Shown here: one piece after another, positions 27,423 through 44,631 of the stretch
Layout: each line of letters begins with the position of its first letter
How positions within the stretch are numbered: position 1 is the first letter of the stretch
Assembly: GCA_964019425.1 (NCBI GenBank)
Contig: OZ025780.1
Span: 1,054,001 to 1,118,000, forward strand
DNA: 64,000 nt
Reading direction: 5' to 3'
Source of the DNA: Flectonema sp. DT1601
Taxonomy: Eukaryota
Program-made: the position numbers and the translations under genes
The notes under the pieces: model-generated
What the model was told of the DNA's origin: nothing
The model's input: the letters and a program-made list of their open reading frames with translations, nothing else
Databases searched by the model: none

Positions 27423-27608
27423 TTTCCTAACCTACCAGTTGCTTGCGAGTCAACCATTTCTGATACCCAACTCTAACAGGTGTACTCTGAACTACTATTC
27501 CTCTCTTTTGTTGTGATTGTGATCTTCTAACCTTTACGTGATCACAGCATTCTTGTTAAAATATTCACAGCGTGTCTTTATTTCTATTTTCTCCTCAGAC
27601 TTACATAA

Positions 27609-30600
27609 ATGAATGAATTGGTGGACGTTCTGACAGATGCAAAGGATGACCTTCAGATGACTGTGAGGGAGGTTTACACTCTTGCGATTGGAATATTATT
27701 ATTTCTGAGGTACTCTGGATTAGTTGCTTTACGATGTGGACAAGTAAACGGTGAATTAGTAAGCTCCGTATGCGTACAACTCTTATGTTCAATTGTTATT
27801 GGTGGAACCCTATGGTGGATAGTAGGTCATGGTATCTCACATGGTGAAGGTCTGCTCTTTGGAACTACAAATTACTTGCCGTCTCTTGATATCAATAAGT
27901 TCGATTTCTTGTGGGTAATTGAATTTATGATTGCTGTCACGTCTTTGGATGGTCTGCAATCGATGTTAGTTGGAAGAATTTCATTTGTTGGTTATGGATT
28001 GATCATAACCTCGTTATTAGTATTTAGCATCCCATTAACATTTCATACTGTTTGGGGTACATCATCATGGTTAAGACCAGACTCTGTAAATGTTTTCTAT
28101 TTTGGTCTATTCGATCCTTCAGGAGCCACAACAGCCTTCCTCTACTCGGGAGGAAGTGCCTTAGCCTGCAGCTACATCATTGGAGGTCGAAATCTAGAGA
28201 GTTCTGTACTTTCTGGAATCAGTCATCAACGAGTAATGGAAGGTCACAATTACTTTTCACAAGCTTCAGGATTATTCTTTATTTGGATGGCCGTGTTCGT
28301 ACAGGTTGGAAACGGAGTAGTTCAAGGTGAGATAGACATAACAAATTTAGGAAAAGGAATCACTTTTGTCCTGGTGATGACATCATTTAGTACGGTAGCT
28401 GCGATTCTTTGTTCTGTTGATATAAATAAATATTATCGAGTGAGTTCAGTTATCAATGCGATAATAGCTTCTCTAAATGCGTCATGCTCAGTCTGTCACT
28501 GCGTGGCTATCGCTTGGGCTCCTCTGATCGGATTGATTGCAGCTGTTTTATACTTCGCTACCCGAACTCTGATTGAAAAGCTAAAGATCGATGATCCGTT
28601 TGTTGTAATTGGTACTCAATTCATCCCTGCGGTGTGGGGTGCTATTGCAGTGGCACTCTTCGCTGAAGAACACTATTTCACAACAAATACTCGTTCAAAC
28701 GGATTGTTTTACGGAGGTACTGACCTACTCGCATCACAGATACTTGCGGTTATCGTTATTCCGTTGTGGGGGTTTGTGTCAACATCATCAGTCCTATTGA
28801 TCGTAAAGAAAGCAACGAGAGTACTGACTACAGACGATTCCAACGACCATGGAGGTTACTATTGTGATATAGATGGAATGTTTAATCCTCACATTGCTTC
28901 TGAAGACATGATCGAAGATTTCGGAACTCACAGAGACCTACCTGATGACAAGTCAGCAGCCCCATGCCATACTGCTATCGGTGATGACAGGACTACGAAT
29001 GCTTCAGAAATAGATTTCAGTGTCGGTATCACCAAAACAACTGACGTAAAAGTATCTCAAAGAAGTAGTCAAGCCGTCAGGTGGCTGATATTTTGTGTAG
29101 TTTTATCTGCGTCTCTCGGGAGTTCTCTCGCACAGTCAGAGACCATAACTTTAGATCTGTCTTCGGATACGAATTCAACTGCTGATTTCTCTGAAATTTT
29201 TAATAACCTAACCCGGCAAGTTACGGAAACTAAAGACAGTATTAATGTAGTGTGGGCTCTTCTTTGTGCGATTATCGTTTTTTCAATGCAACTTGGATTT
29301 TGTTTTTTGGAATCAGGCGGAGTGAGATCCAGCAGCGTTATTAACATCACCTTCAAGAACATCGGAGACTGCGCTATTGGATCTATGTGTTGGTGGATTA
29401 CTGGTTATGGTATTAGTTATGGTGATGGAGGCATCTTTTTCCCAACTTCATCAGAGTTATTCGTGTTATCACCCCATCCAGAGTATGAGGGTGGTAAACA
29501 ACTGGCTCATTTCTTTCTATCTTTCACTTACATGACCACAGCAGTCACTATTGTATCAGGCGCTGTGGCTGAAAGAATATCCCTACCTGCCTACTATGTT
29601 TTTGTCGTTGGTCTGTCTTCATTCTTTTATCCGATGGTAGTTCGATCTGTGTGGTCGATGTACGGATTCTTATCACCGTTTTCAAATAATATGATTGGAA
29701 GTGGTTCTCTTGACTTCGCTGGTAGTATTGTGATTCATTTATTCGGAGGAGTGTTCGCACTTGTAGCTGCTCGGATAATGGGTCAGAGACAACTACCTGA
29801 CGGAGTTGATGTGTTTAGTATCAGGGGAATTGAATTATCTGCTGGACATAATAAATTTCAAACAGCATCTGGAACTCTCTTTTTATGGTTTGCGTGGTTT
29901 GCATTCAACGCAGGGGGGGTCCTGCAAATCAGCGACGGCGGTTCGATAGTCGCAGCGAATGCTGTCGTTACGACACTGCTTGCATCTGGTTCTGGAGGGA
30001 TAATTGGTTTGTTAACAAGTCGATTGTTCTTAGGTTACTTTGATGTTTCTCATGTTTGTAATTCAGTTCTCGTTGGATTAGTTTCAATAACAGCAGGCTG
30101 TGCTTACATCTCTCCATCATACGCACCATTAGTTGGAGCTGTCGGATGTTTCTTTTACATGATCTTCCGGCACATCAGAATCAAACTCCGAATCGACGAT
30201 GTAATCGACGCTGGTGCTGTCCATTTCGGAGGAGGTCTTTGGGGAGCTTTATCAACAGGTCTGTTCTCAGATTGTGATCGAATTAGACTCGCAACTGGTG
30301 TTAAAACATATTCTGATTGCGGTCTTTTTATTTCCGGTGAATGGACGCTCCTTGGTGTTCAAGTTACTACAGTAGTCTGTGTTGCTGCTTGGTCTGTTTT
30401 ATGTTCAACTATATTATGTTTTGGTCTCAAATATACAATCGGTCTTCGGGTCGATCCTCTCTATGAATTAAACGGGATTGATCAATCTGAACACAAAGCT
30501 CATTCTTATGATTATATCGAACGGATTCAAGCAGAACGTGAAAAAGCTGTCGAAGCTCAACAAGTTGCTGAAAAAGTAACACAAGCAATGTCTCAGTTCA

Positions 30601-31841
30601 GTCTTGATGAAGCAGCTAGCATCATGAAGGAAGCAAGAACTCGTCATGATTTAGAGTTGTACAAATACTTTGACACCCTTCTTAGTAACCTAAGACTCTA
30701 CAAGCCATACTTACCAGATACTCTGTTTCGTGATGTGACTATTGAAAATAACGGCGATTGTCCTTCAACGAGCACCATGAGTACTGAAAGTAAGACATGT
30801 TCTACAGCTCCAACTTCAACGTTGGGTAATAAACTAGGAACTGGTTTGAGTAAGTATCCCAGATCAACATTACTCCATGCGAGGTTATCAGACAATCACG
30901 AAATGACATCAATAAGTGAAAGAGTACTAAAGTACACTTCAATAATTGCTCTCTTTGAAGACTCCGTCAGAGAGAGTCGAGGATGTCTCGTTCGTGTTGA
31001 GGGAAACTCATTGATGGGAGTCTGGGGAATATCTGGCTTCGTTGCGATGTCAGCACATGTTGCAACACGGGTATCCCTATCTGTTCTGTCAAGGTATAAA
31101 AATATAATTCAAGGAACTGAAGATAAACATCTTGGAGACCCTCTGTATGGTCTGACCGGATGTCAAAATTGTATTCTCCACACAGCAATTGTAGGTGGTT
31201 GTGTCATTGCGGGGAATATCGGAACCACGACGACCCGGTCAAGTATTATTTTAGGTTCGAGTGTTAATCAAGTTACTACTTTATCTCAAATTGGAATATA
31301 CATTAAAAGTAAACTAATAATTGGATCACACGTAGCTCAAAGTATAGTAAGTGACTATGAGTGTCGACCAGTTGATGTTATTGGAGGAGAGTATTTTGGA
31401 AGTCGACAAGAAGTATTTGAGATCATAGGAAAGTGTAATCAAGTCGAAGACAGCAGGGAATGGATGTACGAAATCCAACATCCGGAAGTAAAAACCAGCA
31501 AACACGAAGACTACTACGATGCATTCAGAAACATGCGATCTGGGAACTACTCATTAGCAATTTCATCATTCTCGGCGTACCTTCGTAAGAACCCTGGAGA
31601 TATTGGAACACATCGCCTGATGGGAATCGCAAGATCACTTGATTTCGATTCCCGTTACAAGCCGGTAGACTTTGGACGTTTAGTTACCTTCCCACCGTTT
31701 GAGTTATATGCTGGAGAATGCTTACCTCGTAATATTGCAATTGATGTTCTCGTTGCAATTATTGCGATTGTAGTTTCCGCGTCTAGTGCCTCTAACAGCT
31801 ACTCTGACAGTGATGAAAACACCACGGCATCGATCGACTGA
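27609..31841 (+). CDS. Tandem ammonium transporter (Amt/Mep/Rh) domains fused to a class III adenylate/guanylate cyclase-like domain and a TPR-like tail
   Basis: Amt2 motifs: MQLGFCFLESG, IVSGAVAER, DFAGSIVIH, LWFAWFAFNAG, LVGLVSITAGC, IDDVIDAGAVH, GLRVDP..E..GID.SEH. Amt1 degenerate equivalents: WWIVGHGISHG, DPSG, LKIDDP, GLFYGG. Cyclase-like: LRLYKPYLP, VEGNSLMGVWG, GCVIAGNIG, ILGSSVN, EWMYE. Uninterrupted 1410-aa ORF. Confidence 0.9.
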   Translation: MNELVDVLTDAKDDLQMTVREVYTLAIGILLFLRYSGLVALRCGQVNGELVSSVCVQLLCSIVIGGTLWWIVGHGISHGEGLLFGTTNYLPSLDINKFDFLWVIEFMIAVTSLDGLQSMLVGRISFVGYGLIITSLLVFSIPLTFHTVWGTSSWLRPDSVNVFYFGLFDPSGATTAFLYSGGSALACSYIIGGRNLESSVLSGISHQRVMEGHNYFSQASGLFFIWMAVFVQVGNGVVQGEIDITNLGKGITFVLVMTSFSTVAAILCSVDINKYYRVSSVINAIIASLNASCSVCHCVAIAWAPLIGLIAAVLYFATRTLIEKLKIDDPFVVIGTQFIPAVWGAIAVALFAEEHYFTTNTRSNGLFYGGTDLLASQILAVIVIPLWGFVSTSSVLLIVKKATRVLTTDDSNDHGGYYCDIDGMFNPHIASEDMIEDFGTHRDLPDDKSAAPCHTAIGDDRTTNASEIDFSVGITKTTDVKVSQRSSQAVRWLIFCVVLSASLGSSLAQSETITLDLSSDTNSTADFSEIFNNLTRQVTETKDSINVVWALLCAIIVFSMQLGFCFLESGGVRSSSVINITFKNIGDCAIGSMCWWITGYGISYGDGGIFFPTSSELFVLSPHPEYEGGKQLAHFFLSFTYMTTAVTIVSGAVAERISLPAYYVFVVGLSSFFYPMVVRSVWSMYGFLSPFSNNMIGSGSLDFAGSIVIHLFGGVFALVAARIMGQRQLPDGVDVFSIRGIELSAGHNKFQTASGTLFLWFAWFAFNAGGVLQISDGGSIVAANAVVTTLLASGSGGIIGLLTSRLFLGYFDVSHVCNSVLVGLVSITAGCAYISPSYAPLVGAVGCFFYMIFRHIRIKLRIDDVIDAGAVHFGGGLWGALSTGLFSDCDRIRLATGVKTYSDCGLFISGEWTLLGVQVTTVVCVAAWSVLCSTILCFGLKYTIGLRVDPLYELNGIDQSEHKAHSYDYIERIQAEREKAVEAQQVAEKVTQAMSQFSLDEAASIMKEARTRHDLELYKYFDTLLSNLRLYKPYLPDTLFRDVTIENNGDCPSTSTMSTESKTCSTAPTSTLGNKLGTGLSKYPRSTLLHARLSDNHEMTSISERVLKYTSIIALFEDSVRESRGCLVRVEGNSLMGVWGISGFVAMSAHVATRVSLSVLSRYKNIIQGTEDKHLGDPLYGLTGCQNCILHTAIVGGCVIAGNIGTTTTRSSIILGSSVNQVTTLSQIGIYIKSKLIIGSHVAQSIVSDYECRPVDVIGGEYFGSRQEVFEIIGKCNQVEDSREWMYEIQHPEVKTSKHEDYYDAFRNMRSGNYSLAISSFSAYLRKNPGDIGTHRLMGIARSLDFDSRYKPVDFGRLVTFPPFELYAGECLPRNIAIDVLVAIIAIVVSASSASNSYSDSDENTTASID

Positions 31842-32438
31842 GGTACTGTTTATTACCATCACTGGAAACTGTAGTCGTCTTCTTAGGTATGACCTGAACA
31901 GAAAAGGATCTGTTCCTATTTTTTTAAGCCAAAGTAGAGGATGGTTGCATTGTGTCTGGCGGACCAATTCGACACACTGGCTGGTAGCGATAGAACTCTA
32001 TGCTTCTTTATTTGTTATTTTATAATTTTATCACTCTAGTTCTTTGTACCCTTTTCCCAACTTATTATTTTACGAAGCGAAATTATTGCATTTTTTTTCC
32101 CTCTCCGCTTCGCATTTTTTTTCATCCAATTTTCTTTTTTTTTTTTTTGGCGGCTTGAAAAAAGCACCCTCACCATGTCTCAGTTTTTCTTTTTTTTTTT
32201 GTTTGGTTTTTCACACAGTGTGTGATGTGAGGATAACCACTCGTGGGGACGTAAATTTTTCTCCAGCCAGCCGACTTTTCTTTTTTTTATTCCTTTCGAG
32301 ATAACCAGCCTTCCTGTACTCGACTACAGGACGAGGAGGATGGTTTTTTTGTTATTTATATTATTTTTTTCTTCCTCCCTTCAATTTTGCTTTACTGCTT
32401 GCAAACAATAAGTCAATAGTTCCATGTTGTGGGAACCC

Positions 32439-32477
<39 letters not shown>

Positions 32478-33063
32478 TATTTTTAGTATGTCTGTAGTAT
32501 TGCCCAACTAGTTGAAAATAAAAAAAACGATTGATTTCATTATTTTGTACGAGTCGTTGTTAAGGACTGGAGGAAGTTACCCAGTTTTGATTGTGCTTTT
32601 TTTTTTTTTTTTATATTCTAATAATAGCAATTCTAAAAAAAAAAAAAAATCTTATCGCTAGCTGACACTGACTCTTCATCAAGGCGATGAGCCAACAGCA
32701 AGTCATACTTTTATTATATTTTTCTTTTCTTCTTTTTTTTTTTGTCTTGTGTTAGGTTTTTTATTATCTTTTATTAGGAAGATGGACCAACCACGTACGT
32801 CGAATTACCATCTCACACACTATCACCCTAAGTAGACTCAAGGCTGTGGGTACAAACTTAAAAAAAAAAACGATTATTTGTTTGTTGTCCCTAAAAGAGA
32901 ATTTTCTTTTTGAATTGACGTGATTTATATGAATGCTGACGATATCTCATACACTACCGCCATTTATATCATTTGTTTTCCCTCCTTTTTGTTTTTTTTT
33001 TCTCTCTTTTTCTGTTGAAAATTTGGCATTTCATTTAAATTTATCATAGTTGGTTGACAAGTG

Positions 33064-33097
<34 letters not shown>

Positions 33098-33219
33098 ATG
33101 TTGTGAGTTTCCTCTCTCTGGTGCGGTTTTTTTTTTTATTGTTGTTTAGTTGACCGCGACTAGCTGACCAGAATATCATCAAAACACTTGTGCATCTCTT
33201 TTTTTTTTTTTTTTTTTTT

Positions 33220-33331
33220 GTACCTACAAACCCATTGTTCGGTAGAAAGAGAATTGTGGCAGCGTAACTACCTATTCCTTTATTAGGATTTTCTACCGGT
33301 TGCGCACAAACAAAATAAAAGTGTGAGTTAG
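33220..33331 (+). repeat. Dispersed repeat family A, copy 2
   Basis: Matches 5181-5299 in the same orientation and is also preceded by a T-run. Confidence 0.92.
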
Positions 33332-33605
33332 TAAGTAAAAAGTGAAGTTTGCCGATTCTTTTTTCCCCTCTCAAAATTCTCTTGTTTTCTTGAGTTTCAC
33401 GTAGAAATAACGTGGCGGTGTTGGACAATTTTTTTTTTTTTTTTTTTTTTTGTGTTCTCTTTTTCCTCAGTATAAGTTAATTGACTAGCTTTTTTTAATG
33501 ATATTCTTGTACCCTTTCAAAATGATTTCTTTTTACTGGTGTACATAGTTTCTTGTTCCGTTGTGAAACATGTGTGGGTGTGTCTATTTTTTGAAGTTTG
33601 AGCCG

Positions 33606-33643
<38 letters not shown>

Positions 33644-36600
33644 GAATGAGACACATCGAGTCCAGCAGATCAATTTGGGCTCTGATAGGTTCCTTTTTAA
33701 ATACTACTTTCTTTTCTTTTGTAAGTTTTTATTTATATCTCTTCTTTCCTTATAGCATAGTTATTTGAGGCAGCGTGATTTACTGAAACCGCTGAGTAAA
33801 AACCAAGTATCTTTGCGTTTTTTTCTTTGTTCTCCCCCTTGCACCCTTCAGATGATTTATTTTTATTGATGTACATTATTTCTTGTACTGTGAAAGCATG
33901 TATGGGTGTGTTGGCGCACTCGCATTAAAAAAATTCGAAGGGAAAAAAAAAAAAAAAAAAAACTTCCAATAATTCGCGTCAGATTTAACAATTAATCTGG
34001 ACTTGATTAGGCAAACGTTTTTTTGAAAAAAAAAAAAACAATGAAAATTTTTTAGTCTTTTTGTTCTTTGAAAAATGCGATTTTCTTTTTTTTTTTTTTT
34101 CCCCCGCGATTATGTTGCCCAGCCCCTCTTTGTCCTAACTTTTTTTAAGGATATGCGATCGTTTTTTTTTGTTGTTGTTTGTTTGTTTGTGTTTGCAGTG
34201 TGTCCTGCATAAAGCTGATTCAACCTATTCTATACTCCCAGCTTTTCAGACGGTCCTAAAAGTTTTCTTTTTTTTTTTTTTTCACTCCCACTCAAGAATG
34301 CAGTATCAAACTACCCTTCGCTCCAAAACCGTATTTTAGTTTTAGCCAGTTTCAAGTTGCTTTATATTTAATTATAATATTAAGTTCCACTGCTTGCAAT
34401 TGTTTTTGATCGCGGCACTTATTTTTTCCAACATGCCAGCACTTGCGTTTTTTTTTTTTTTTTTTTCATTGAAATTATTGTAATCAAACGAGGGTGAGAA
34501 CTATTGTCAGTCCGCATTCTACCTTCAGTCATTCCGTAAGGTGGGTCATCGGTGTTGTTGTTTTTTTTTTTTTTTTTTTTTTTTTAAAAGGAGAATTCTG
34601 CTCTTTGAATGTGGCATTGTTTTCTTTGTTTTCTTGTTTTTCCCACTCATGTCAATTGGAGCTTCCTTTTTTTTTTTTTCCCTTCTTTTTTTTACAATAA
34701 AAAATCGGTGTTTTTTTTATCATCTAAAAACACAACCACAGAAAACACCGAACGATGAAAGAGAAAATCTCACATAAATATAACAATAAGAATAGTACAA
34801 AACTAGAGTTGAGTATATGTCTCTTGATCTTGTGTGTGAACCTAACGAAGAGCTTCTCGATTCTTTTGTACATCCACCTAAACTGATATTTCGGTAGACG
34901 CGCCGGCAAACAATTCAATTCAGTTTTCTGCATGACTTCTTTCCCCTACCCTTTTTTTTTTTTTTTTTTATTATCGAAGCTTGTTGTCCTTTGTGCAGTG
35001 TTTTGCAGTATCCTGTATTCTTTTCCCCTCAGTACTCATTTTTTATTGTTTTGCTTATTATTTTTTATTTTATATCAGTTTTTCTTTTTTTTTTTCTTTT
35101 GAGTGTAGTGGTGTCAACAAGTAAATGTTTGAGGACTTAGCTTGTTGTTCGACGTCATTCACTTCCTTTGTGTTTGTCGGAAGAGATTTAATGAGACAAC
35201 TAGTTAGATATAAGAGTAAAGGTAATGAGTTTTCTCTTGCTTGCTTCGATTTATTTATACATAATTGCTGCTTATTATATCCACGTTGCTCATGTAGAAA
35301 ACGATGGGCGGGTTGGAGAAAATAGAAATTCATTTCTGTTTTCGTTCTTCCTTTTTTCTCTCTTCTTCATTAAAGTGCGCGGCTGAAAAAAAAAAAAACT
35401 GAAGAGAGCCGCCAGCTGCACGCACAGTTTTTCTTTTTTCATTCTCGTTCTCATTGGTAATAATGCTTTTAATTTCTCATGCCGAATGACTTTTTAAAAT
35501 ATTCTGTCCACTGAATATGAGGATTGTTCTTCGTCACCAGTGAGAATCGAACTTGACGTACCATATCACAGTTACTTGGGTCCACTCTCCTTTTTTTATA
35601 ACTCAGATTCCAGATCACTCTCTCTCGGACAATCCAGCACTGTTCCAGAGTAGAAGTTGCTAAGGTTGTTATTTTTTATGTTCATTAATCTGATGTAAAA
35701 ATAACAACGCAAACGCTTGTTATAATCAAAAAGGTTCACGTTGGAGCATGTTTTCCTTATCTCTTTTTTTTTTTTTTTTTCTTTTTTCCCTCTTAAATAT
35801 CTCAAAAGAACAACACAAACGTAATAGCCTTGTCTGCTGTGCGTGTGACACTTAGGATAGTCGCTTGAACAATAAAAAAAAAAAAAAAAAAAAAAAGAAA
35901 AACTTTTTTTTTTTTTTTTTTTTTAAAACATAAAAACAAAGACACGATAAATTCACTCCCTTCTCCCGTTTTTATACTTACAGTTTACGAGTTATTTCTC
36001 TCTTTTTTTAAAAAAACTTTTCCTATTGATGACCAATCAGGACTACGATCCGGTTAGATTTCATCAACGAAGAGAGTCATCACAATCCTTCACAGAAGAT
36101 TGAAACAATCGACCCTTTAGTAAGAAAGTTACCACACCGGGTCGCCGCGTCTCAGCTACGTTGGATTGAGTAAACGAATATTCTAAATATTCATATTTCT
36201 TTTTTGTTTTGACTCCCATTCCGAGGTATATTTTATAGAAAAACTTTGTAGGAATTTCTAATAACCCCCCTTTTTTTTTTTTTTTTTTTTTTTTTTGTAT
36301 GTGAAAAAGTCTTTTTAAACCCTCAACTTGAAACCAATAACAAGTATTGGTTTGTTGTGAACATATACTAAGCTGCTCTTGTCTGTCTATGAGAGTTGAA
36401 AAAAAAAAACAGTAGAATTGTTCTTTTTTTTTTATTAGCCGAGGGTGCAAGGTGCTTTTGTTTTTTATTTTGAAATTATGAAGGAAATCCTGTTTGATCT
36501 GCCCTCAATAATTAGAAGATAATGTTGGCGACTATTTTCGGTTTATCAGCTGTTAATGTAACCTGCTATCGGTACACACAGGTTGACTTTAGTATACGTC

Positions 36601-36674
36601 AAGCTTTGGATTTTTTTGATTTTTTTTTCTTTTTTTTTTTTTTTTCAATTTATGTTTTTTTTTTTATTATTATT

Positions 36675-37432
36675 CATAGATGGAAGTGCCCTACAATTTG
36701 GAGGGCGTGTAGGGCGCTTGTAGGGCGCTTTTAATATAAATATTATTTTGGAGGGCGCTTTTTTTTACTTTTTTTATTACTGTAAGACACGGGGACTTAC
36801 ACTGACGCACAAGTATTTTGACGCAGAAGCCAAAAAAATTTTTTTTGACATGCTTGGCAGTCTTTCGAAAAAAAAAAGGGGTGTCAAGGGGTTCGAACCT
36901 GAGACCTCCAGGTCATGGTTCGGAGGTCAACAATGGCAAAAACAATGGGCCACTCCTTGAGAGCTTCCGGGGCCTGCTGCAATCCCTGAAGCTGAAACTC
37001 ATTTCAGTGGACGATGCATCCCAGATCTACAAGGAGCTGATTAGCCCGCAGAATGCACCGAGTCGAATATAGAGGGATTCGAGGAGGGAGAGTGTGTTCC
37101 TGCTAACCTGTTAATAGGCCGGTCTTCACGGTACCCTGTGGGAAAAAAAAGAAGTTTACTGGTGGCAAGTAAACTGATATCCCAGAGACGCATTTGATCG
37201 GGCGAACCGGAGAAAAGTCAAATAAGATGCGATTCGACCTCGCTGAGGGCAGGGGTGTGTCAAAATGAGCTCGGCATTATATTAAATTTAATAAAAAAAG
37301 CGCCCTACGCGCCCTCCAGCGCCCTATTTTGGCCCTATTTTGGCCCTACAATGGCCCTATTTTGGCCCTACAAATTTTTGTGGCTGATTTTCACCAGGCG
37401 CCCTCCAAATTTGGAGGGCACTTCCATCTATG
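36675..37432. mobile_element. Non-autonomous TIR DNA transposon (MITE-like), 758 bp
   Basis: The left end CATAGATGGAAGTGCCCTACAATTTGGAGGGCG matches the reverse complement of the right end, CATAGATGGAAGTGCCCTCCAAATTTGGAGGGCG. Subterminal AGGGCG/(C)GCCCT arrays are present, flanked by ATTATTATT on both sides. No transposase ORF. Confidence 0.9.
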
Positions 37433-38771
37433 ATTATTATTATTATTTTGTCTACGACACAGTTCTTCAGAACACCGACCTTTAAAAAAAAAAAAAAAAA
37501 AAGGATTTTCAAATAGCTTTTACACCCTGTAAAGTAACTAGGGTAGTGACCCTCACACACAAGTGGGTAGGGGACGAACCGTAGGAACTGGCCATAAAGC
37601 TCAAACCCTCGGAGCAACAAGGTATCGAACGACTGGGTAACCCTGTGAGCTTTCTCCTTGACTTCGATAAAAAATAAATAAATAACTGGACTCACCCACT
37701 TAAAGAGACTGGATGACATTACGTCGTTTTCATTTATGTATTTTGTGGTTTTTTTTTTTTTTAAAATTTTTGAAATGGTCTTCTGAAGGACAGTAATAAG
37801 TTATTATTCTTCTTTTTGTTAGTATGAGCGTGCGACAGTCATGCTAGCATGGAGTAGGAAAATATCTCTGTTACCCATATGTGTTAGATAAGAAAAGCTG
37901 TGAACGCTTAGTGAAAATGATATATTATTTTATGAAATGAACAAAAGGTTTAATGATGGTGATTTTATTATAATATTTCAGCTGTTAAAATAAACTGTCT
38001 GACTACTATGGTATGTTTTGTTTATTAGTTGGTCCTTGTCTTCCGTATTGAGTTTGATTGCTTAGACTGTAGGAGTCTTGCTGTCTCGTCAAAGTAACAA
38101 AATGATCACAAAAACTGACGTCGAGCAGTCGCTAACCGAGTCTGAGTTTCCTTCTCGTTGGTGAAAATCCCGACTTGGAAAATATTGCTTGAGAAAAAAA
38201 AAAAAAGAACAAAAAAAAAGAAAAAAAAAAAAAAGAAAAAAGAAAAGAGGAACTCCTCTGTTACAAATGCTTGCGTTTCATTCTATCTATTGTTGTTGTA
38301 GATTTGTATTTATCCTTTTTTTTTTTTTTGAGAATACGCAAACTACAACACTGGTTTTGATGATTTGTCTGCTTTATTCTCTCTCGTCTGTCTTCCTTTG
38401 TTTTTTTTTTTGAGATTAAATCTAGACAACATGTTGCTCAGCAAATGTAAAATTAAAATCAATAATCCAGTTTAGGGATTGATTCCGATGAGTAGCACAC
38501 GACTTTATTATATGTGTGTGCTGACTTTCATTATTATTTTTCTTCTTCTTTCTTGGGGTGCGCACCAACAATACAATCCAATTGGGATTAAATTTTGTAC
38601 TCGTTGCGGCATCGAAGATCTCTGGGCTTACCCCTGAGATGCGTATTGCTGTTTCTTTTCTATCAGTCTTTCAATGCACTGTGTAATTATCGTTTGAGGT
38701 CTTCCATTTAATGATGACAACAAGTAGGATAGGATCATAAAATTAAGATTGATTTTTTTTTTTTTTTTTTT

Positions 38772-38921
38772 GCACCTGACGAAGTCGAAGAAGAAACTAT
38801 TCAGATTAAGAATCCGTTTTACTTATTATGTCAAAAACAAAAAATGTTATCTATTTTTTTCCCCGTGAGCCCGGTATTACTGTCCCTCAATCAACAAAAT
38901 AAGGATTTATTTGAATGGTTT
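38772..38921 (+). repeat. Dispersed hairpin repeat family B, copy 1
   Basis: (T)n-gcacc.gacg.agtcg.agaagaaactattcagatt...ttttccccgtg...tcaac.aaataa...tgaatggttt; matches the copies at 49145 and 63745. Confidence 0.85.
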
Positions 38922-40009
38922 TTTTTTTTTTTTCTTTCGTTTTTTTTTACTCTTCTATGGTTTAGATGAGTTGTTTTGTTCCTCTAATTTCTTATCTCTC
39001 TCTCTCTCTCAAATATATTCTCTTTTTTTTTTTCTTCATTCCTGTTGCGAGTGAATAAGTATCCCGTTGAGTACGGCACGCTAGACGATTGATGGTGTAG
39101 TTAACACTAATTTCTTATTACCCCTACATGATAAATCGTGTTTGTCCTTCTCATAGAGAGTGGATGCTGACGCAAGTTCAATGCAATTGAAATTCTTTCA
39201 TTCCCCTTCTCCCTCTTTTCTTTTTCATGTACCGGAACAAATTACCGATGGTAGTGTTAGCGTCACTCTTTGGGTTGGTTTTAGGTCTGCTTCTTGCCTG
39301 CTGAATAATCGAAGCGATACTTGTCATATATTTACTACGTCAAGTTGACATCTTCTTTTTTAGTGTAAAAATTCCGTTCCTGACACTTTTCGCAACATCT
39401 CTGCGAAGTGTTTTTGTTTTATGATATGGGCCCTAGGATATAGGCCCTCGTATTTTTTTTTTTTTTTTTTTTGGGGGGGGCTTGTTTTCTTTTTTTACAT
39501 GGGAGATATCTATTGTTTGTTATACGAAATAAAATAAATAACGACATCTTATCCCAAAAAAGAAAAAAAAAAAAAAAAAAAATAAAGTCTATTGACCCTC
39601 TGATAAAATAAAAAAAAAAACATTTATTTTGTTAGATTTTCTGGAGTGCTTGACCTTTTAGTCGTCTTTTATTCTTTCCCTTTTAAGCTCTTTTACGAAT
39701 TGTTTTTTGTTGATGTTTTTTTTTGATGAAAAACAACGTCATCTGATTTTCTAAAAGTCTTGCGAATGGGTCATCACCTCATTCCCTATCGTTAGTATCA
39801 TTTCTTTCCGAAAAAAGTAGCACCCTGGAAATGTAGTACTCTTTTTTCTATTTGTACGGTTCGATTAGCTATAGGCGTTTAAGTCAACAAACATCAAAAT
39901 TAACAAAACATTTATTAGCCCCCGCTGCTACGAACTAGCAATTGTTGCTAACAACCTTTTTTTATAAAGAATTTTACTAAGAAATGTTCAGGTTTATTTA
40001 TTTTATAAA

Positions 40010-40530
40010 GATTGTTTATTTCTTGACGAGACTATAGGCGAAACCTGCTGTGTTCATTGTGCCCCGTCAACCGAAGCTATAATAAAACAATCCTAATAAG
40101 ATTGGGAGTCTAATTACGTTGCTGTTGCCTCGTAGCTCAAGGGAGTTAACCCAATGCTCCCTAGTTTGCTGTATCAGCGATGCACAGTACGCAATGTATT
40201 GGACTTCCATCTATCTATCTATCTATCTATCTATCTACACTCTGCGGTATTACATTATACCCTGGTTTTGGTTTCCCAGGTCTCACGATTAATTCATAAT
40301 TGAATAACTCGATTCCGTACTGCACTGAATGACAACACGGAAAAAGAGACATGTATGCAGATAAGTTAGAAACATTGATTATAATGTAGAGAAAGTACGT
40401 CAATTGCAGAGTGTTAGCCTGTATTAACATTTTAGTCACTTGTGTCATGAGTTTTTTAATTTTATTACTGAGCTCTGATACACTACAGAGATTTATATTC
40501 GTATGAACCTAATCAAACAGTCTTCACCCC
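40010..40530 (+). repeat. Dispersed structured repeat family D, copy 2 (contains a 190-bp insertion)
   Basis: Blocks are colinear with 10301-10570, with extra sequence at 40047-40236. Confidence 0.9.
40047..40236 (+). mobile_element. Putative retroposed insertion (SINE or 3'-truncated LINE fragment) with an (ATCT)7 tail
   Basis: Absent from the other family-D copy, which reads aaacct^acactctg. Ends in an ATCT microsatellite at 40209-40236. Confidence 0.6.
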
Positions 40531-42713
40531 CGCTCCCTCTTTACATAAAGACGGCACAGCGGCAATTGAATCGCGTGCGATGATTGCAACTGTTTTTACT
40601 GAAACTATTTATTGGATCGGCTTTTTCCGTTCTACTTGCGTGTTTCTTTTCTTTTCTTTTTTTTTTTTTTTTAAATGTTTCGTAAAGACATTTAGAAACG
40701 TTAAAATAATAAAAGAGGAGGCTTTTCTTTTTTTGTTGTACGGATGTCATGCTGGGTTCTGGGTTTTGGTTTTTCCCTGACTTAAATAAATAAATAAATA
40801 AATAAATAAAAACACTACTTTCACACAATGTGAGTCTTGGTAGTTACTTCAGGTCAGTGTACGTATCTTACTATCAGAAAGTCTTCACGGTTGTTTTGTA
40901 CCGAATATCGTGATTCCCCCTCCTTTTCTTTTTTAATTTTTTCTTTAATATTAATTTGCTTTTGAAGTGTGAAGGAATACTATTTCAAGCTGTAAAGGAG
41001 CTACATGGACCTGTAGTACGTGGCCCCACGTTGATTTTCTTATATTGCAACCGGGTTTGGCCGAACCCTATATTCGTTTTTAGCCAAGTTTCAGGTTGCT
41101 TTATTTTTGATCATAATATCAAGTTACCTCCCCCGCTATTGATTCCCTGGGCTTCGTAAAATAATTTGCTTTTTCTAGCCGCCTCAAATCAGATCAATAG
41201 CTGACTGTGGTTTTAATTCATTTTTTATTTTATTATTTTTTTTTTATTTATCCCCCATATTTCTTTTTTTTTCTTCGTTTATATCTGCGATATTTTTTTT
41301 CTTTTTTGTTATTTTAGTTCTTTCTTTGACTAACGTTTATTTGTTTGGTTCAGAGGTGTAGTTAGAAAAAAAACAAAAAAAAAAACAAGAAAAAAGCGAC
41401 TATCGATATCTCGTTAGTGAACCCACTCACAGATGTGGTGAACAATATGCATCACACAAAGAAAATCCCATTCACAGTTTTGGTATATAAAAAAAAAAAA
41501 AATGATTCTTTCACAACATCAATTTTGTAAACAATAATCAGTAAGCAAATCAATTTTTTTAATATTTTTTTATAAAAGCTTTTTTTTTATTACTTTTTTA
41601 TTATTAAAGTAACCTGTTGGTGAGTTTCATTGCATGACACCAACCTCTCTCTTGTATCTCTCTGTTACAAGAGTCTTTGAGTGTGATTTGTGGCTCAGTG
41701 TCTAGAGAGCAACAACTACAATCGGATCGTATGACTCAGAAATGGAAATAATATTAAATAAGTTAGTTTTTGATCTTTAGCATCTTTTATTCCATTTTTT
41801 TTTGCTTTTTTTTTGCATTTCAACAAAGTATTGTAAGAAAAAAAAAAAAAAAAGAATGTTGGGCAGCACACGTAAACCTCCTTTAGCTTTAAATCTAAAT
41901 CGGTTCACGGGTTTCGTAACACAAACAAAAAAAACATCACAGTTGTTATATTACTATTTTCTGTGTAGTTTTTAAGATAAAGCCAATTCTTTTTTTTCTT
42001 TAAATATACCACTCCTTCGGGGTTTATTGATCGTTTTTTTTTTTAAAGTTTTTTTTTTTTTTTTTTTTTTTGAGAATCTTTGGTTTTTCTCCGTTAGCAC
42101 GCTATGGGGAAAACAAAAAAGTCTCTTATCTCAAAAATTTCAAAAAAAAAAAAAAAAAAAAAAAACCTATAACGATAGGAGGACAGATGTCTAAGGGTAA
42201 TACAAATCTGATTTTCAAATTGCAAAAAAAAAAAGAAATCCTCAAATATTCTAGACGGTACTTTCTAGAACGAATGGAATAAAAACAACAACGATAGGCT
42301 ATTCACTTCAGCCTTCGATTTGTTTTTATTTATTACTTTATTTTTTATTTTTATATATTTTGGTTCCTTTCTATGCTTTCGTTGCTGTGTTCGAATTTTT
42401 CTTTTTTTTTCTTTTATTTTTTTTGTTCACACCGACAAAGAGTTTTTTCTTTTGGCTGAGGACCTACTTTTAATTGTTTTCGTCTTTGCCATCATGCTCT
42501 GAAATTGCTTTGTTGTTTCTTGAACTTATCAAGTCCATCCATGTTATTCAATTCCATGTAGTCAACTCTTTTTATTTATGTTCTCATCGATATTATATCC
42601 TTACTTCTTTTTTAAAGCAGAATGATATTGTTGAAATGCTGAATCTTCAGAGTAGGTAGTCCACTCCTTCACTTCCTTCCATTTGCTACATTAACAGGTT
42701 CCACAACTAAAAT

Positions 42714-42866
42714 ATGAAAACCAGCAACAAAACTAAAGTCAAAGGAAGGTTAGTGCTACTCGCAATGTGGGGAACATTCATTTCTTGCTGGGCATGGAAT
42801 TGGACGACGAATAAGTTGGAATTTGATAACCGAGGAGAGACTGTTGATGAACGACGATACGAGTAG
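42714..42866 (+). CDS. 50-aa single-pass membrane microprotein (below the ORF-track cutoff)
   Basis: Pyrimidine tract ccactccttcacttccttcc, then acceptor-like ttaacag (42697), an in-frame upstream stop at 42708, ATG at 42714 and TAG ending at 42866. Protein: MKTSNKTKVKGRLVLLAMWGTFISCWAWNWTTNKLEFDNRGETVDERRYE (basic N-terminus, hydrophobic/Trp core, charged tail). Confidence 0.7.
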   Translation: MKTSNKTKVKGRLVLLAMWGTFISCWAWNWTTNKLEFDNRGETVDERRYE

Positions 42867-43526
42867 TGACTTTTCTTATAATCTGAAGTAGATCTCAATA
42901 CACGTGATGGTTATTAACAAACTGATGTTTGAAATTATTTTATTATTTTGTTGCCATTCAAAGATGTGACATCTGAGAGCCCCTTCGCTCTTTTAATTGT
43001 TTCTTTTGTTTTATATAATTTCTCGATGGCGTGCATGCCAACCGACTGCGGGATTTACTGCAATCGGTTTTCACACGGGTTTCGCTCTCTACACTTCGAA
43101 GCCTTTCCAACTGACAACCAACACTTACCTTGTGTATATTCTTGTCTGTGGCACAGAAAAAGAATAAAAAAGTTTTTTTTTTTGCTTTTTTTTTGTTGCT
43201 TTAAATCCTTCGCTATGTCTGTGTTTATGTTTAACTGCAATACGTTTAGAGAAATAAACCGATTTGAGTACCTACTCAGGTAGTGATATAATGTGAGAGT
43301 GATAGTTGGTCTGCACACTAACCGTCATCACTAACGTTGTAATTACTGATGTCGTTCGGAATTATTTTCTTCTCTGATTTCAAAGGTATCTGTCAACGTT
43401 TCGAATTGCACACTTTTCAAACAAAGGTGTTGGCTCTGGTTGGAATGTTTATTGAGTTGTTGTTTATTATTATTATCATCACCTTCCATTCCTACGCAGA
43501 AAGTTTTTATTTATATTTTAAAAAAA

Positions 43527-44631
43527 ATGATGTTTTCACTTGTGACAGCATCAGCTCTGTCAACGTGTTTGTGTTCAGACAGTAGCTACTGCGCTCCGTT
43601 AACTACGCCGCTTGCGACTACTGAAGTTCTTGCATTCGCACCCAGAGTAGATGCTTGGAAGGAATACGAAATCGATGCTCTCACAACAATCGTTAAGTTT
43701 GGTAACCTCTCAGATGTACCTGAGCTCGTGTGTGCTGCTCACGCAAAGGGAGTTCGAGTTACGTATTCGACTGCTTTCGATGCTACAAAACTGAACGACA
43801 GTTCTGCCATCTCCGCCTTCGTAAAAGAAGTAACGACAACAGTCTCTGATCTCCATCTTGACGGTTTCAACTTTGATGTCGAACAAAGTACTTCAGACGC
43901 CAAGGGATTGTCTATTCTCGTAAAGAGTGTTTCTGAGTCACTTAGAGCAGCCAATCCTCTCGCACAGATCTCTTTTGATTCAGGTTTGTAATTTAATTAT
44001 TTCAAAAAATATTTTCCTATTCTACCCTTTTATGAAAAAATCATTGACTACTCTAATCACGTAAACAGGTATCTACGGTAACTTACCAGCTGCTTACAAC
44101 TTTAGTGAGATTGCTCCTCACATTGACTTTTTCGTCCCGATGGGATATGATATGTGTTGGGGTACTTCTACTGCAGAACCAAACAGTCCAATTGCTGGAG
44201 TTGAAAAAGGAATGAGCGACTACAAAAACTGGGGATACGCTAACAAGACAGTGTTGGGATTGCCTTGGTACGGTTGGAACTTTCCTTGTACAGAAGCCAA
44301 ACCTTCAGGTGGGTGTCCTGTTGTTAAACCTTTTGCTGGAGCTGCTTGGCAAAAGTGCAACGATGACATCACTGCATTGATAAGTAACGCAACCGTACAA
44401 CCTAAATACACCGATGCAGGAGATGCTGTATTCTTTTCATATGAGTTAGAAGGAGTTCCTCATCAGGTTTACTACGATGACTCTACGACCCTAACTAAGA
44501 AATACAATCTCGTTCCTCAATTCGGTCTTCGCGGTATCGCAATTTGGTATGCTGGCTGCGCTATCAAAAAATCAAATGAAAACACTGCGATGTGGAAGGC
44601 TCTCGCTCAAGTTAAAAATCAACAGCACTGA
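43527..44631 (+). CDS. CTBS: Di-N-acetylchitobiase-like GH18 glycoside hydrolase; exons 43527-43983 and 44069-44631
   Basis: Signal peptide MMFSLVTASALS, LVCAAHAKGVRV, catalytic DGFNFDVE, DFFVPMGYD, VLGLPWYG, HQVYYDD..TL..KY, GLRGIAIW. An 85-nt phase-1 intron GTTTGT...GTAAACAG joins ORFs 43440 and 44140 in frame. Confidence 0.88.

What the first reader, a model, noticed from the sequence alone, without database searches (positions are those of the whole stretch)
27609..31841. Amt-Amt-cyclase fusion: candidate eukaryotic ammonium transceptor coupled to a nucleotidyl-cyclase fold
Seen in sequence: one uninterrupted 1410-aa ORF with Amt domain 1 (about 27670-28810), an acidic linker, Amt domain 2 (about 29240-30495), a helical stalk ending LSNLRLYKPYLP, a class III cyclase-like domain (about 30860-31470) and a TPR-like helical tail. 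Established: prokaryotic Amt sensors fused to signalling domains exist (e.g. an Amt-histidine kinase in anammox bacteria), and fungal Mep2 is a transceptor without a fused enzyme. I know of no characterised eukaryotic tandem-Amt-class III cyclase. Inference: an ammonium-sensing receptor feeding into cyclic-nucleotide signalling in a protist.
Basis: partly seen in the sequence, partly recalled or inferred. Interest (0 to 1): 0.92.

Follow-up and report, generated by a model that had tools for sequence, protein, structure and literature searches.

The report
Ammonium receptor with a dead cyclase
A gene of a likely diplonemid marine protist joins two ammonium-channel domains to a cAMP-enzyme fold that has lost its catalytic residues, so it likely senses ammonium and relays the signal through protein contacts instead of making cAMP, while related diplonemid genes keep a complete enzyme.

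Summary
The 1410-aa ORF and its Amt-Amt-cyclase-fold-TPR layout are real, but two of its three modules are degenerate. Amt1 has lost the twin histidines, the Phe gate and the ammonium-site ligands. Amt2 keeps both histidines and all six N1/N2 ligands of bacterial ammonium receptors, and its best structural matches are Ks-Amt5 and Sd-Amt1. The C-terminal domain has the class III cyclase fold (Foldseek E 4e-12; VIA Z 19.7) and is predicted to dimerise. It lacks both metal-binding aspartates and the catalytic arginine, as does its 55%-identical closest relative. It does hold for the family: of 28 related proteins (all 16 named ones diplonemid), 11 carry a catalytically complete cyclase, and others carry a kinase or a cNMP-binding channel. 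Eight tandem fusions come from single transcripts. Best reading: a non-catalytic ammonium receptor subunit that signals through a dimeric pseudo-cyclase-TPR tail (0.55). No paper describing such eukaryotic fusions was found in 10 searches. This scan noted Amt-cyclase fusions before on other DNA (e1-7380758, e1-7450538). Function is untested.

The parts
27575..27598 (+). Pyrimidine tract and AG 10 nt before the ATG; likely spliced-leader (trans-splice) acceptor
   Evidence: 18 of 20 pyrimidines before the AG; role inferred from euglenozoan biology
27609..31841 (+). Whole ORF, 1410 aa (P0001)
   Evidence: aligns end to end with P0002 (55% identity; by region)
27630..28868 (+). Amt1, degenerate Amt-fold domain (aa 8-420): twin His -> F177/Q337, Phe gate -> I108/Q232, N1/N2 ligands lost
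   Evidence: Amt-type helical pattern in the model; 55% identical to P0002 Amt1
28869..29072 (+). Disordered, partly acidic loop (aa 421-488), predicted cytoplasmic
   Evidence: pLDDT <50 at aa 407-484; 18% identity to P0002 over aa 421-485
29073..29138 (+). Extra hydrophobic helix (aa 489-510), signal-peptide-like; would return the chain to the outside so that Amt2 has the N-out topology
   Evidence: (a hydrophobic 15-mer 54-77 aa before the Amt2 TM1 motif in 16 of 20 rows; N-terminal in single-Amt P0013 and P0015); cleavage not tested
29229..30524 (+). Amt2 (aa 541-972), ammonium-receptor type: H710/H872, W682, F766; N1/N2 ligands Q561, E568, N584, D587, T647, S650; switch residues F564, K583, Y662; exit plug N818. 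Departures: Y641 (first gate Phe), G770 (vestibule Ser), C588 (F/T of the published motif)
   Evidence: Foldseek ranks 1-3 are Ks-Amt5 and Sd-Amt1; numbering from PMC11152129
30525..30734 (+). Three-helix stalk (aa 973-1025) and cyclase-transducer-element-like motif with the LP pair (aa 1026-1042)
   Evidence: helices at pLDDT about 82-95; 66% and 82% identical to P0002; part of the predicted dimer interface; CTE definition from passages of PMC13466520
30843..31439 (+). Class III nucleotidyl-cyclase fold without catalytic residues (aa 1079-1277): Asp1->R1092, Lys->R1129, Asp2->N1133, Thr/Asp->I1213, Arg->T1224; N1220 kept
31440..31646 (+). EWMY motif and TPR-like helical hairpin (aa 1278-1346)
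   Evidence: three helices in the model; relatives hit TPR Pfams here; P0001 itself has no TPR Pfam hit
31734..31790 (+). Hydrophobic C-terminal helix (aa 1376-1394), possible membrane anchor
   Evidence: hydropathy 2.43, and 1.93 in P0002; at most 1.0 in the other 8 of 10 proteins examined

Best explanation
This is a membrane protein with a degenerate Amt domain, a receptor-type Amt domain and a cyclase fold stripped of its catalytic residues, and it likely works as an ammonium receptor that signals without making cAMP. Step 1 (inferred from conserved residues): ammonium passes the His pair of Amt2 and binds the N1/N2 pocket, as in Sd-Amt1 and Ks-Amt5. Step 2 (inferred): the C-terminus of Amt2 shifts, and the stalk and transducer element re-register the predicted dimer of two pseudo-cyclase domains. 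Step 3 (inferred): the TPR-like hairpin passes that change to a partner protein. In relatives the partner is fused in cis right behind this module (a kinase, a complete cyclase or a cNMP-binding channel); here it would bind in trans, or the chain would act inside mixed Amt trimers with catalytically complete paralogs. Amt1 would be a structural filler protomer: a trimer of two Amt2 and one Amt1 carries exactly two tails, which would fit a dimeric output domain (speculative).
For: Amt2 keeps all six N1/N2 ligands, both switch residues, the exit-blocking Asn and the twin His. The same six ligands are in the C-terminal-most (or only) Amt of 28 of 28 family proteins, while Amt1 lost them in 12 of 20 tandem members, so the site is kept where a signal could be passed on. 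Foldseek ranks Ks-Amt5 and Sd-Amt1 above all transporters. The transducer element is the best-conserved segment against P0002 (82%; Amt2 70%, pseudo-cyclase 52%). The loss of catalytic residues is shared with P0002, so it is old, and the domain still folds well (pLDDT 84.9). Predicted homodimer of aa 980-1364: score 0.62, best of 3 controls 0.00; the runs agree in at least 70% of contacts, partner pLDDT 70; the mark was reached by 21 of 30 microbial and 17 of 29 eukaryotic solved homodimers and by 0 of 23 and 0 of 30 single chains; the interface uses the stalk, aa 1102-1117 and the arm at aa 1203-1215, and the pass may come from memory of solved cyclase dimers. The same dead cyclase-TPR module lies between receptor and effector in P0004 and P0189 (kinase), P0094 and P0013 (second cyclase) and P0191 (Ion_trans + cNMP-binding). 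86 of 124 aligned cyclase-TPR domains from the search keep at most one of three catalytic residues. pTM 0.79 for aa 1-1057 is above the ~0.5 that I estimate for two freely oriented halves, consistent with Amt1 packing on Amt2.
Against: The N1/N2 motif is permissive: PMC11152129 finds it in 29.6% of 18,924 Amt/Rh sequences, including unfused plant transporters. P0001 fails the strict published pattern at one non-ligand position (C588) and has Gly for the vestibule Ser and Tyr for the first gate Phe. No partner of the TPR hairpin was identified. No genome of this organism is held, so catalytically complete paralogs in the same cell are assumed from other diplonemids. The filler-protomer idea rests on counting and one pTM value; the model's contacts were not visible. 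In 8 of 20 tandem relatives Amt1 is intact, so tandem Amt does not need a dead first domain.
Confidence: 0.55

Rival explanations
1. It is mainly an ammonium or ammonia channel (uptake or excretion) whose dead-cyclase tail regulates or localises it.
For: Amt2 keeps the His pair, W682, D702 and F766. Plant AMT1 transporters also carry the N1/N2 motif (PMC11152129). Database relatives are annotated only as ammonium transporters.
Against: The exit-blocking Asn of Sd-Amt1 is present (N818); the two characterised fused Amts mainly bind and do not transport; half of the Amt domains in this chain have no His pair; the tail keeps a transducer element at 82% identity.
Confidence: 0.2
2. It is a modulating subunit that does not sense ammonium itself, or senses another small amine, and tunes or dampens catalytically complete Amt-cyclase paralogs by co-assembly.
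For: Two of three modules are degenerate. The domain supplies neither half of a class III active site, so a mixed dimer with an active cyclase would be dead (follows from the shared-active-site dimer; PMC7384201 passages). The entrance differs from AmRs (Y641, G770).
Against: All six N1/N2 ligands and both His are kept in P0001 and P0002. The pseudo-cyclase domains group apart from the catalytically complete domains in a quick tree (SH-aLRT 99, long branches), so a mixed dimer is not the obvious pairing.
Confidence: 0.15
3. One reading: the protein itself makes cAMP or cGMP in response to ammonium.
For: Class III fold and predicted dimer; a basic residue at the base-specifying position (R1129; K in P0002) and an acidic residue beside the missing Asp in both.
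Against: Both metal-binding Asp and the transition-state Arg are missing in P0001 and P0002, and the Asn is missing in P0002 too, while control cyclases in the same alignment show the full set. No PF00211 hit.
Confidence: 0.05
4. Artefact or decaying gene: a mis-joined assembly, two genes split by internal trans-splicing, or a pseudogene.
For: No transcript of this gene itself was seen. 9 of 239 AG dinucleotides in the ORF follow a pyrimidine-rich stretch.
Against: P0002, from another contig, aligns over the whole length. None of the 9 AGs lies between Amt1 and Amt2 or between Amt2 and the cyclase fold. Eight tandem-Amt plus cyclase-type ORFs come from single Trinity transcripts.
Confidence: 0.03

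Closest known systems
Sd-Amt1 of Shewanella denitrificans (Amt-HAMP-diguanylate cyclase; PDB 8QJ3/8QJ4/8QPF; PMC11152129, Results and Discussion read)
   Same: Best sequence match in the PDB (E 1.7e-40); Amt2 has its N1/N2 ligands, Lys/Tyr switch, Asn plug and His pair; a helical linker leads to a dimeric output domain.
   Different: Eukaryotic; two Amt domains in one chain, the first degenerate; output is a class III cyclase fold with a TPR hairpin, not GGDEF; the output is catalytically dead; no HAMP hit.
Ks-Amt5 of Candidatus Kuenenia stuttgartiensis (Amt-histidine kinase; PDB 6EU6; PMC5764959, passages read)
   Same: Top Foldseek match (E 3.5e-18, TM 0.88 by target); same N1/N2 pocket.
   Different: Single Amt, bacterial, active histidine kinase output.
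Class III adenylyl cyclases of the cyclase-TPR type (for example CHASE2-cyclase-TPR P0045, HAMP-cyclase-TPR P0062) and solved CyaB, CyaC and OaPAC
   Same: Same fold, arm motif, transducer element and trailing TPR hairpin.
   Different: Catalytic Asp, Asp and Arg are absent. PDB 6YII, titled a class III adenylyl-cyclase-like ATP-binding protein (Z 12.7; title only seen), is a possible precedent for a non-catalytic member.
Uncharacterised diplonemid Amt-cyclase proteins, for example Diplonema papillatum KAJ9470023.1 and KAJ9448406.1 (named 'putative ammonium transporter 1 member 5')
   Same: Same Amt clade, same stalk and transducer motif, same N1/N2 site.
   Different: They carry a catalytically complete cyclase followed by a degenerate one; P0001 has only the degenerate type.
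Alveolate and stramenopile P4-ATPase-guanylate cyclase (PMC13466520, passages read)
   Same: A eukaryotic transporter-fold module, partly degenerate in some lineages, fused to a class III cyclase.
   Different: Unrelated membrane module, active cyclase, no ammonium site.

Membership tests
Amt/Mep/Rh superfamily | PF00909 domain and Amt fold | tested here: met
   two PF00909 stretches, 403 bits against a cut-off of 23; Foldseek TM 0.88-0.92 by target
Ammonium receptors (AmR; PMC11152129) | N1/N2 ligands Q, E, N, D, T, S/T at the published spacing | tested here: met
   Amt2: Q561, E568, N584, D587, T647, S650
Ammonium receptors (AmR; PMC11152129) | Strict published pattern, including F/T after the Asp | tested here: not met
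   C588. Phe49 is not a ligand in Sd-Amt1, and only 3 of 8 fused bacterial-type Amts tested matched the strict pattern
Ammonium receptors (AmR; PMC11152129) | Twin His, Phe gate and Trp/Ser vestibule leading to the site | tested here: inconclusive
   Amt2 has H710, H872, F766 and W682 but Y641 and G770; Amt1 has neither His nor either gate Phe
Ammonium receptors (AmR; PMC11152129) | C-terminal fused transducer joined by a helical linker | tested here: met
   stalk helices, transducer element and cyclase fold
Ammonium receptors (AmR; PMC11152129) | Ammonium binding rather than transport, and ammonium-dependent output | not testable with these tools
   needs SSM electrophysiology and an output assay
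Assimilatory Amt transporters (AmtB, Af-Amt1, Mep2 type) | Tyr/Ser-lined open exit and no N1/N2 ligands | tested here: not met
   Amt2 has the N1/N2 ligands and N818 at the plug position (definitions)
Class III nucleotidyl cyclases | Fold | tested here: met
   Foldseek E 3.7e-12; VIA Z 19.7, rmsd 2.4, 188 aligned; Atlas first hit PF00211 cluster at 0.93
Class III nucleotidyl cyclases | Two metal-binding Asp (residue scheme recalled; checked against complete cyclases in the same alignment) | tested here: not met
   R1092 and N1133
Class III nucleotidyl cyclases | Transition-state Asn and Arg; base-specifying Lys/Glu and Thr/Asp/Cys | tested here: not met
   N1220 kept; Arg->T1224; R1129 and I1213
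Class III nucleotidyl cyclases | Dimer with a transducer element before the domain | tested here: inconclusive
   motif present; predicted dimer 0.62 against best control 0.00, possibly from memory of solved dimers
Fungal Mep2-type transceptors | Transport coupled to signalling without a fused enzyme domain; no N1/N2 site | tested here: not met
   fused tail and N1/N2 site present; Mep2 falls in the cluster without the site

The most novel reading that the evidence does not exclude
Diplonemids run a whole eukaryotic family of one-component ammonium receptors, in which one Amt sensor is wired to interchangeable outputs (adenylyl cyclase, protein kinase, cNMP-binding channel) through a dimeric pseudo-cyclase-TPR relay. 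This gene is the bare sensor-plus-relay form, and its dead first Amt domain is a filler protomer that fits the three-fold sensor to the two-fold relay.
Probability: 0.3. Interest if true: 0.85.

Novelty: new variant of a known kind. Interest (0 to 1): 0.6.

Why it matters
The two characterised ammonium receptors are bacterial, and how a trimeric Amt drives a dimeric output is an open point in that work (PMC11152129, Discussion). Diplonemids are abundant marine protists with expanded signalling families (PMC10161547, passages). This family offers eukaryotic receptors with direct enzymatic read-outs, including two D. papillatum proteins with complete cyclases, so ammonium-to-cAMP signalling can be assayed directly. 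The window's own protein is the less direct test, because its output is non-catalytic. It matters as a case of a pseudo-cyclase used as a relay and of a pseudo-transporter kept under selection. Practical point: cAMP assays should use a complete paralog, not this gene.

Tried and rejected
No whole genome is held for this window, so paralogs in the same organism were not counted. No sequencing run was listed for the gene; this is no evidence either way. Pfam does not detect the cyclase domain and a PDB sequence search found only Amt hits; the fold needed profiles and a model. My first motif pattern for complete cyclases was too strict and matched none of 33 proteins; it was redone, whose counts are used. 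The hydropathy scan picked the last Amt1 helix instead of the linker helix in 3 of 20 rows and nothing in 1. Trees have long branches that meet; I use them only for the placement of Amt2 among diplonemid sequences and claim no donor or order of events. No other Amt or cyclase-type domain was found in the window's six frames. Earlier-findings look-ups by sequence and by genome were empty. Paper searches returned no papers; searches returned listings in which no title or abstract start described a eukaryotic Amt-cyclase. Considered and rejected: an active cyclase in this protein (residues missing in both P0001 and P0002) and a split or mis-joined gene (full-length relative, transcripts of relatives).
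Full report
Observation. The ORF is real: 27609-31841 on the + strand, 1410 aa, no internal stop, with 63-109 stops in each other frame. All 20 ORFs of 150 aa or more in the window lie on the + strand. A neighbour encodes a DUF1935-calpain, a GH18 gene appears split by a short GT-AG intron, and a pyrimidine tract with AG sits 10 nt before this ATG. With the relatives below, this points to a diplonemid (inference). Pfam finds two Amt domains and no cyclase.

The two Amt domains differ sharply. I mapped the residues that PMC11152129 defines for the receptor Sd-Amt1 (whole Results and Discussion read). Amt2 keeps the His pair (H710, H872), W682, F766, all six N1/N2 ammonium ligands (Q561, E568, N584, D587, T647, S650), the switch residues K583 and Y662, F564, and the exit-blocking N818. 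It departs at the first gate Phe (Y641), the vestibule Ser (G770) and the F/T position of the published pattern (C588). The model's best structural matches are Ks-Amt5 and Sd-Amt1, ahead of Af-Amt1, AmtB and Mep2. Amt1 has F177 and Q337 for the histidines, no Phe gate and none of the six ligands, yet it is 55% identical to Amt1 of P0002, so it is maintained. The N1/N2 motif is not proof of sensing: the paper finds it in 29.6% of 18,924 Amt/Rh sequences, plant transporters included.

Between the domains is a disordered loop and an extra hydrophobic helix (aa 489-510). An 11-helix Amt starts outside and ends inside, so a tandem needs such a helix. A matching segment lies 54-77 residues before the Amt2 TM1 motif in 16 of 20 rows examined, and at the N-terminus of the single-Amt members P0013 and P0015, which suggests a retained signal peptide (inference; cleavage untested). 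pTM for aa 1-1057 is 0.79; by my estimate two freely oriented halves would give about 0.5, so the model likely packs Amt1 against Amt2.

The C-terminal region is a class III cyclase fold with a TPR-like hairpin. A search of 1.8 billion representatives gave 164 hits at E<=0.001, of which 150 were listed; I scanned 64 of these against Pfam, and several are complete CHASE2-, HAMP- or Cache-cyclases. The AlphaFold model (pLDDT 84.9) matches OaPAC at E 3.7e-12 and CyaB at Z 19.7, rmsd 2.4 over 188 residues. The catalytic positions (scheme recalled, and checked against complete cyclases in the same alignment) read R1092 and N1133 for the two Asp, R1129 for Lys, I1213 for Thr/Asp, N1220, and T1224 for Arg; P0002 has the same losses and lacks the Asn as well. 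The domain can supply neither half of the shared active site. The scaffold is kept: the transducer-element-like motif is 82% identical to P0002, and two copies of aa 980-1364 are predicted to dimerise through the stalk and the arm (score 0.62, best of 3 controls 0.00; runs agree in at least 70% of contacts, pLDDT 70; mark reached by 21 of 30 microbial and 17 of 29 eukaryotic solved homodimers and by 0 of 23 and 0 of 30 single chains; possibly from memory of solved cyclase dimers). This dead module is common: 86 of 124 aligned cyclase-TPR domains keep at most one of Asp2, Asn and Arg. Named examples among those looked up come from diplonemids, euglenids and Acrasis.

The family. Searches gave 28 distinct proteins of this Amt type, counting P0001 and leaving out three near-duplicate cluster members (P0182-P0184), two bacterial-type Amt-PAS-cyclases and the unrelated eukaryote-like P0026 and P0027. 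Sixteen carry a source name: Artemidia motanka (8), Diplonema papillatum (3), Namystynia karyoxenos, Diplonema ambulator, Lacrimia lanifica (1 each) and two with the prefix Hpha, which I read as Hemistasia; 11 are unnamed ENA proteins. The C-terminal-most (or only) Amt has all six ligands in 28 of 28; 20 of 28 have two full Amt domains, and the first has lost the ligands in 12 of these 20; 23 of 28 have a cyclase-type domain. Eleven of 28 have a complete Asp/Lys/Asp/Asn/Arg set (P0007, 9, 10, 11, 12, 94, 185-188, 190), P0013 has His for Arg, and two carry a kinase; P0191 ends in an ion channel with a cNMP-binding domain. Eight tandem-Amt proteins with a cyclase-type domain come from single Trinity transcripts (P0003, 4, 94, 123, 185, 187, 189, 191), so the fusion exists as one mRNA in relatives. 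Amt2 of P0001 groups with P0002 (SH-aLRT 100) in a weakly supported clade with the Diplonema and Lacrimia proteins (88). Bacterial Amt-PAS-cyclases with complete sites also exist (P0204, Phormidium; P0199) and group with bacterial Amts. Both word-based searches scored only their top ~8000 candidates within a length window, so the family may be larger.

How it most likely works. Shown: the anatomy and the residue states. Predicted: folds and dimer. Inferred: ammonium binds N1/N2 in Amt2, the stalk and transducer element shift a pseudo-cyclase dimer, and the TPR hairpin relays this to a partner. The main argument is comparative: in P0004, P0189, P0094, P0013 and P0191 this dead module lies between the Amt and an effector, and P0001 is the same construction without the effector. 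Amt1 as a filler protomer is speculative. I give this 0.55; a regulated channel 0.2; a non-sensing or other-ligand modulator 0.15; an active cyclase 0.05; an artefact 0.03.

Comparison with what is known. It works like the bacterial ammonium receptors Sd-Amt1 and Ks-Amt5. It meets their ligand and fused-transducer features, misses the strict pattern by one non-ligand residue, and binding was not testable. It is not a member of the catalytic class III cyclases. Ten paper searches showed no description of a eukaryotic Amt-cyclase. PMC11152129 has no 'adenylate' in its text or searchable supplements, but its Fig. 7B lists domain organisations by kingdom and could not be seen. The D. papillatum genome paper has no 'ammonium' in text or supplements and no 'cyclase' in its main text (passages and term searches); the Euglena paper describes cyclase families without 'ammonium' (passages). 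PMC5764959, PMC13466520, PMC7384201 and PMC12918730 were seen as passages only. Tremblay and Hallenbeck 2009 was seen only as a reference. The library lacks most subscription journals. This scan had already noted eukaryotic Amt-cyclase fusions on other DNA (e1-7380758, e1-7450538); those are unchecked notes and are not counted as support.

Verdict. Observation confirmed; interpretation partly supported. A new variant of a known kind: a eukaryotic, tandem-Amt ammonium-receptor-type protein with a non-catalytic cyclase tail, in an apparently undescribed diplonemid family that also holds complete Amt-cyclases. Interest 0.6.

Noticed in passing
window 43527-44631: A GH18 glycoside hydrolase appears as two ORFs; a short GT...AG stretch near 43985-44067 looks like a cis-spliced intron joining them.
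   Followed up: partly
window 31842-43349: About 11.5 kb, GC 0.32-0.38, rich in poly-T and poly-A runs, with no ATG-started ORF of 150 aa or more downstream of the gene; possibly long 3' UTRs or a gene broken by introns.
   Followed up: partly
window 1-64000: All 20 ORFs of 150 aa or more are on the + strand, as in a polycistronic cluster; they include a TIP49/RuvB-like helicase, a DUF1935-calpain, Noc2, a Cns1/TTC4-like protein and four ankyrin proteins, two of them directly upstream of the gene.
   Followed up: no
protein P0191: A diplonemid transcript encodes tandem Amt, degenerate cyclase domains and an Ion_trans plus cNMP-binding channel in one 2541-aa chain: a candidate ammonium-linked ion channel.
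   Followed up: partly
proteins P0004 and P0189: Artemidia tandem-Amt proteins ending in a protein kinase: candidate eukaryotic ammonium receptor kinases.
   Followed up: partly
protein P0027: An unnamed metagenome protein with Amt, RGS (PF00615) and G-alpha (PF00503) domains in one chain.
   Followed up: no
proteins P0204 and P0199: Bacterial-type Amt-PAS-adenylate cyclase fusions with complete catalytic sites; P0204 is from Phormidium sp.
   Followed up: partly
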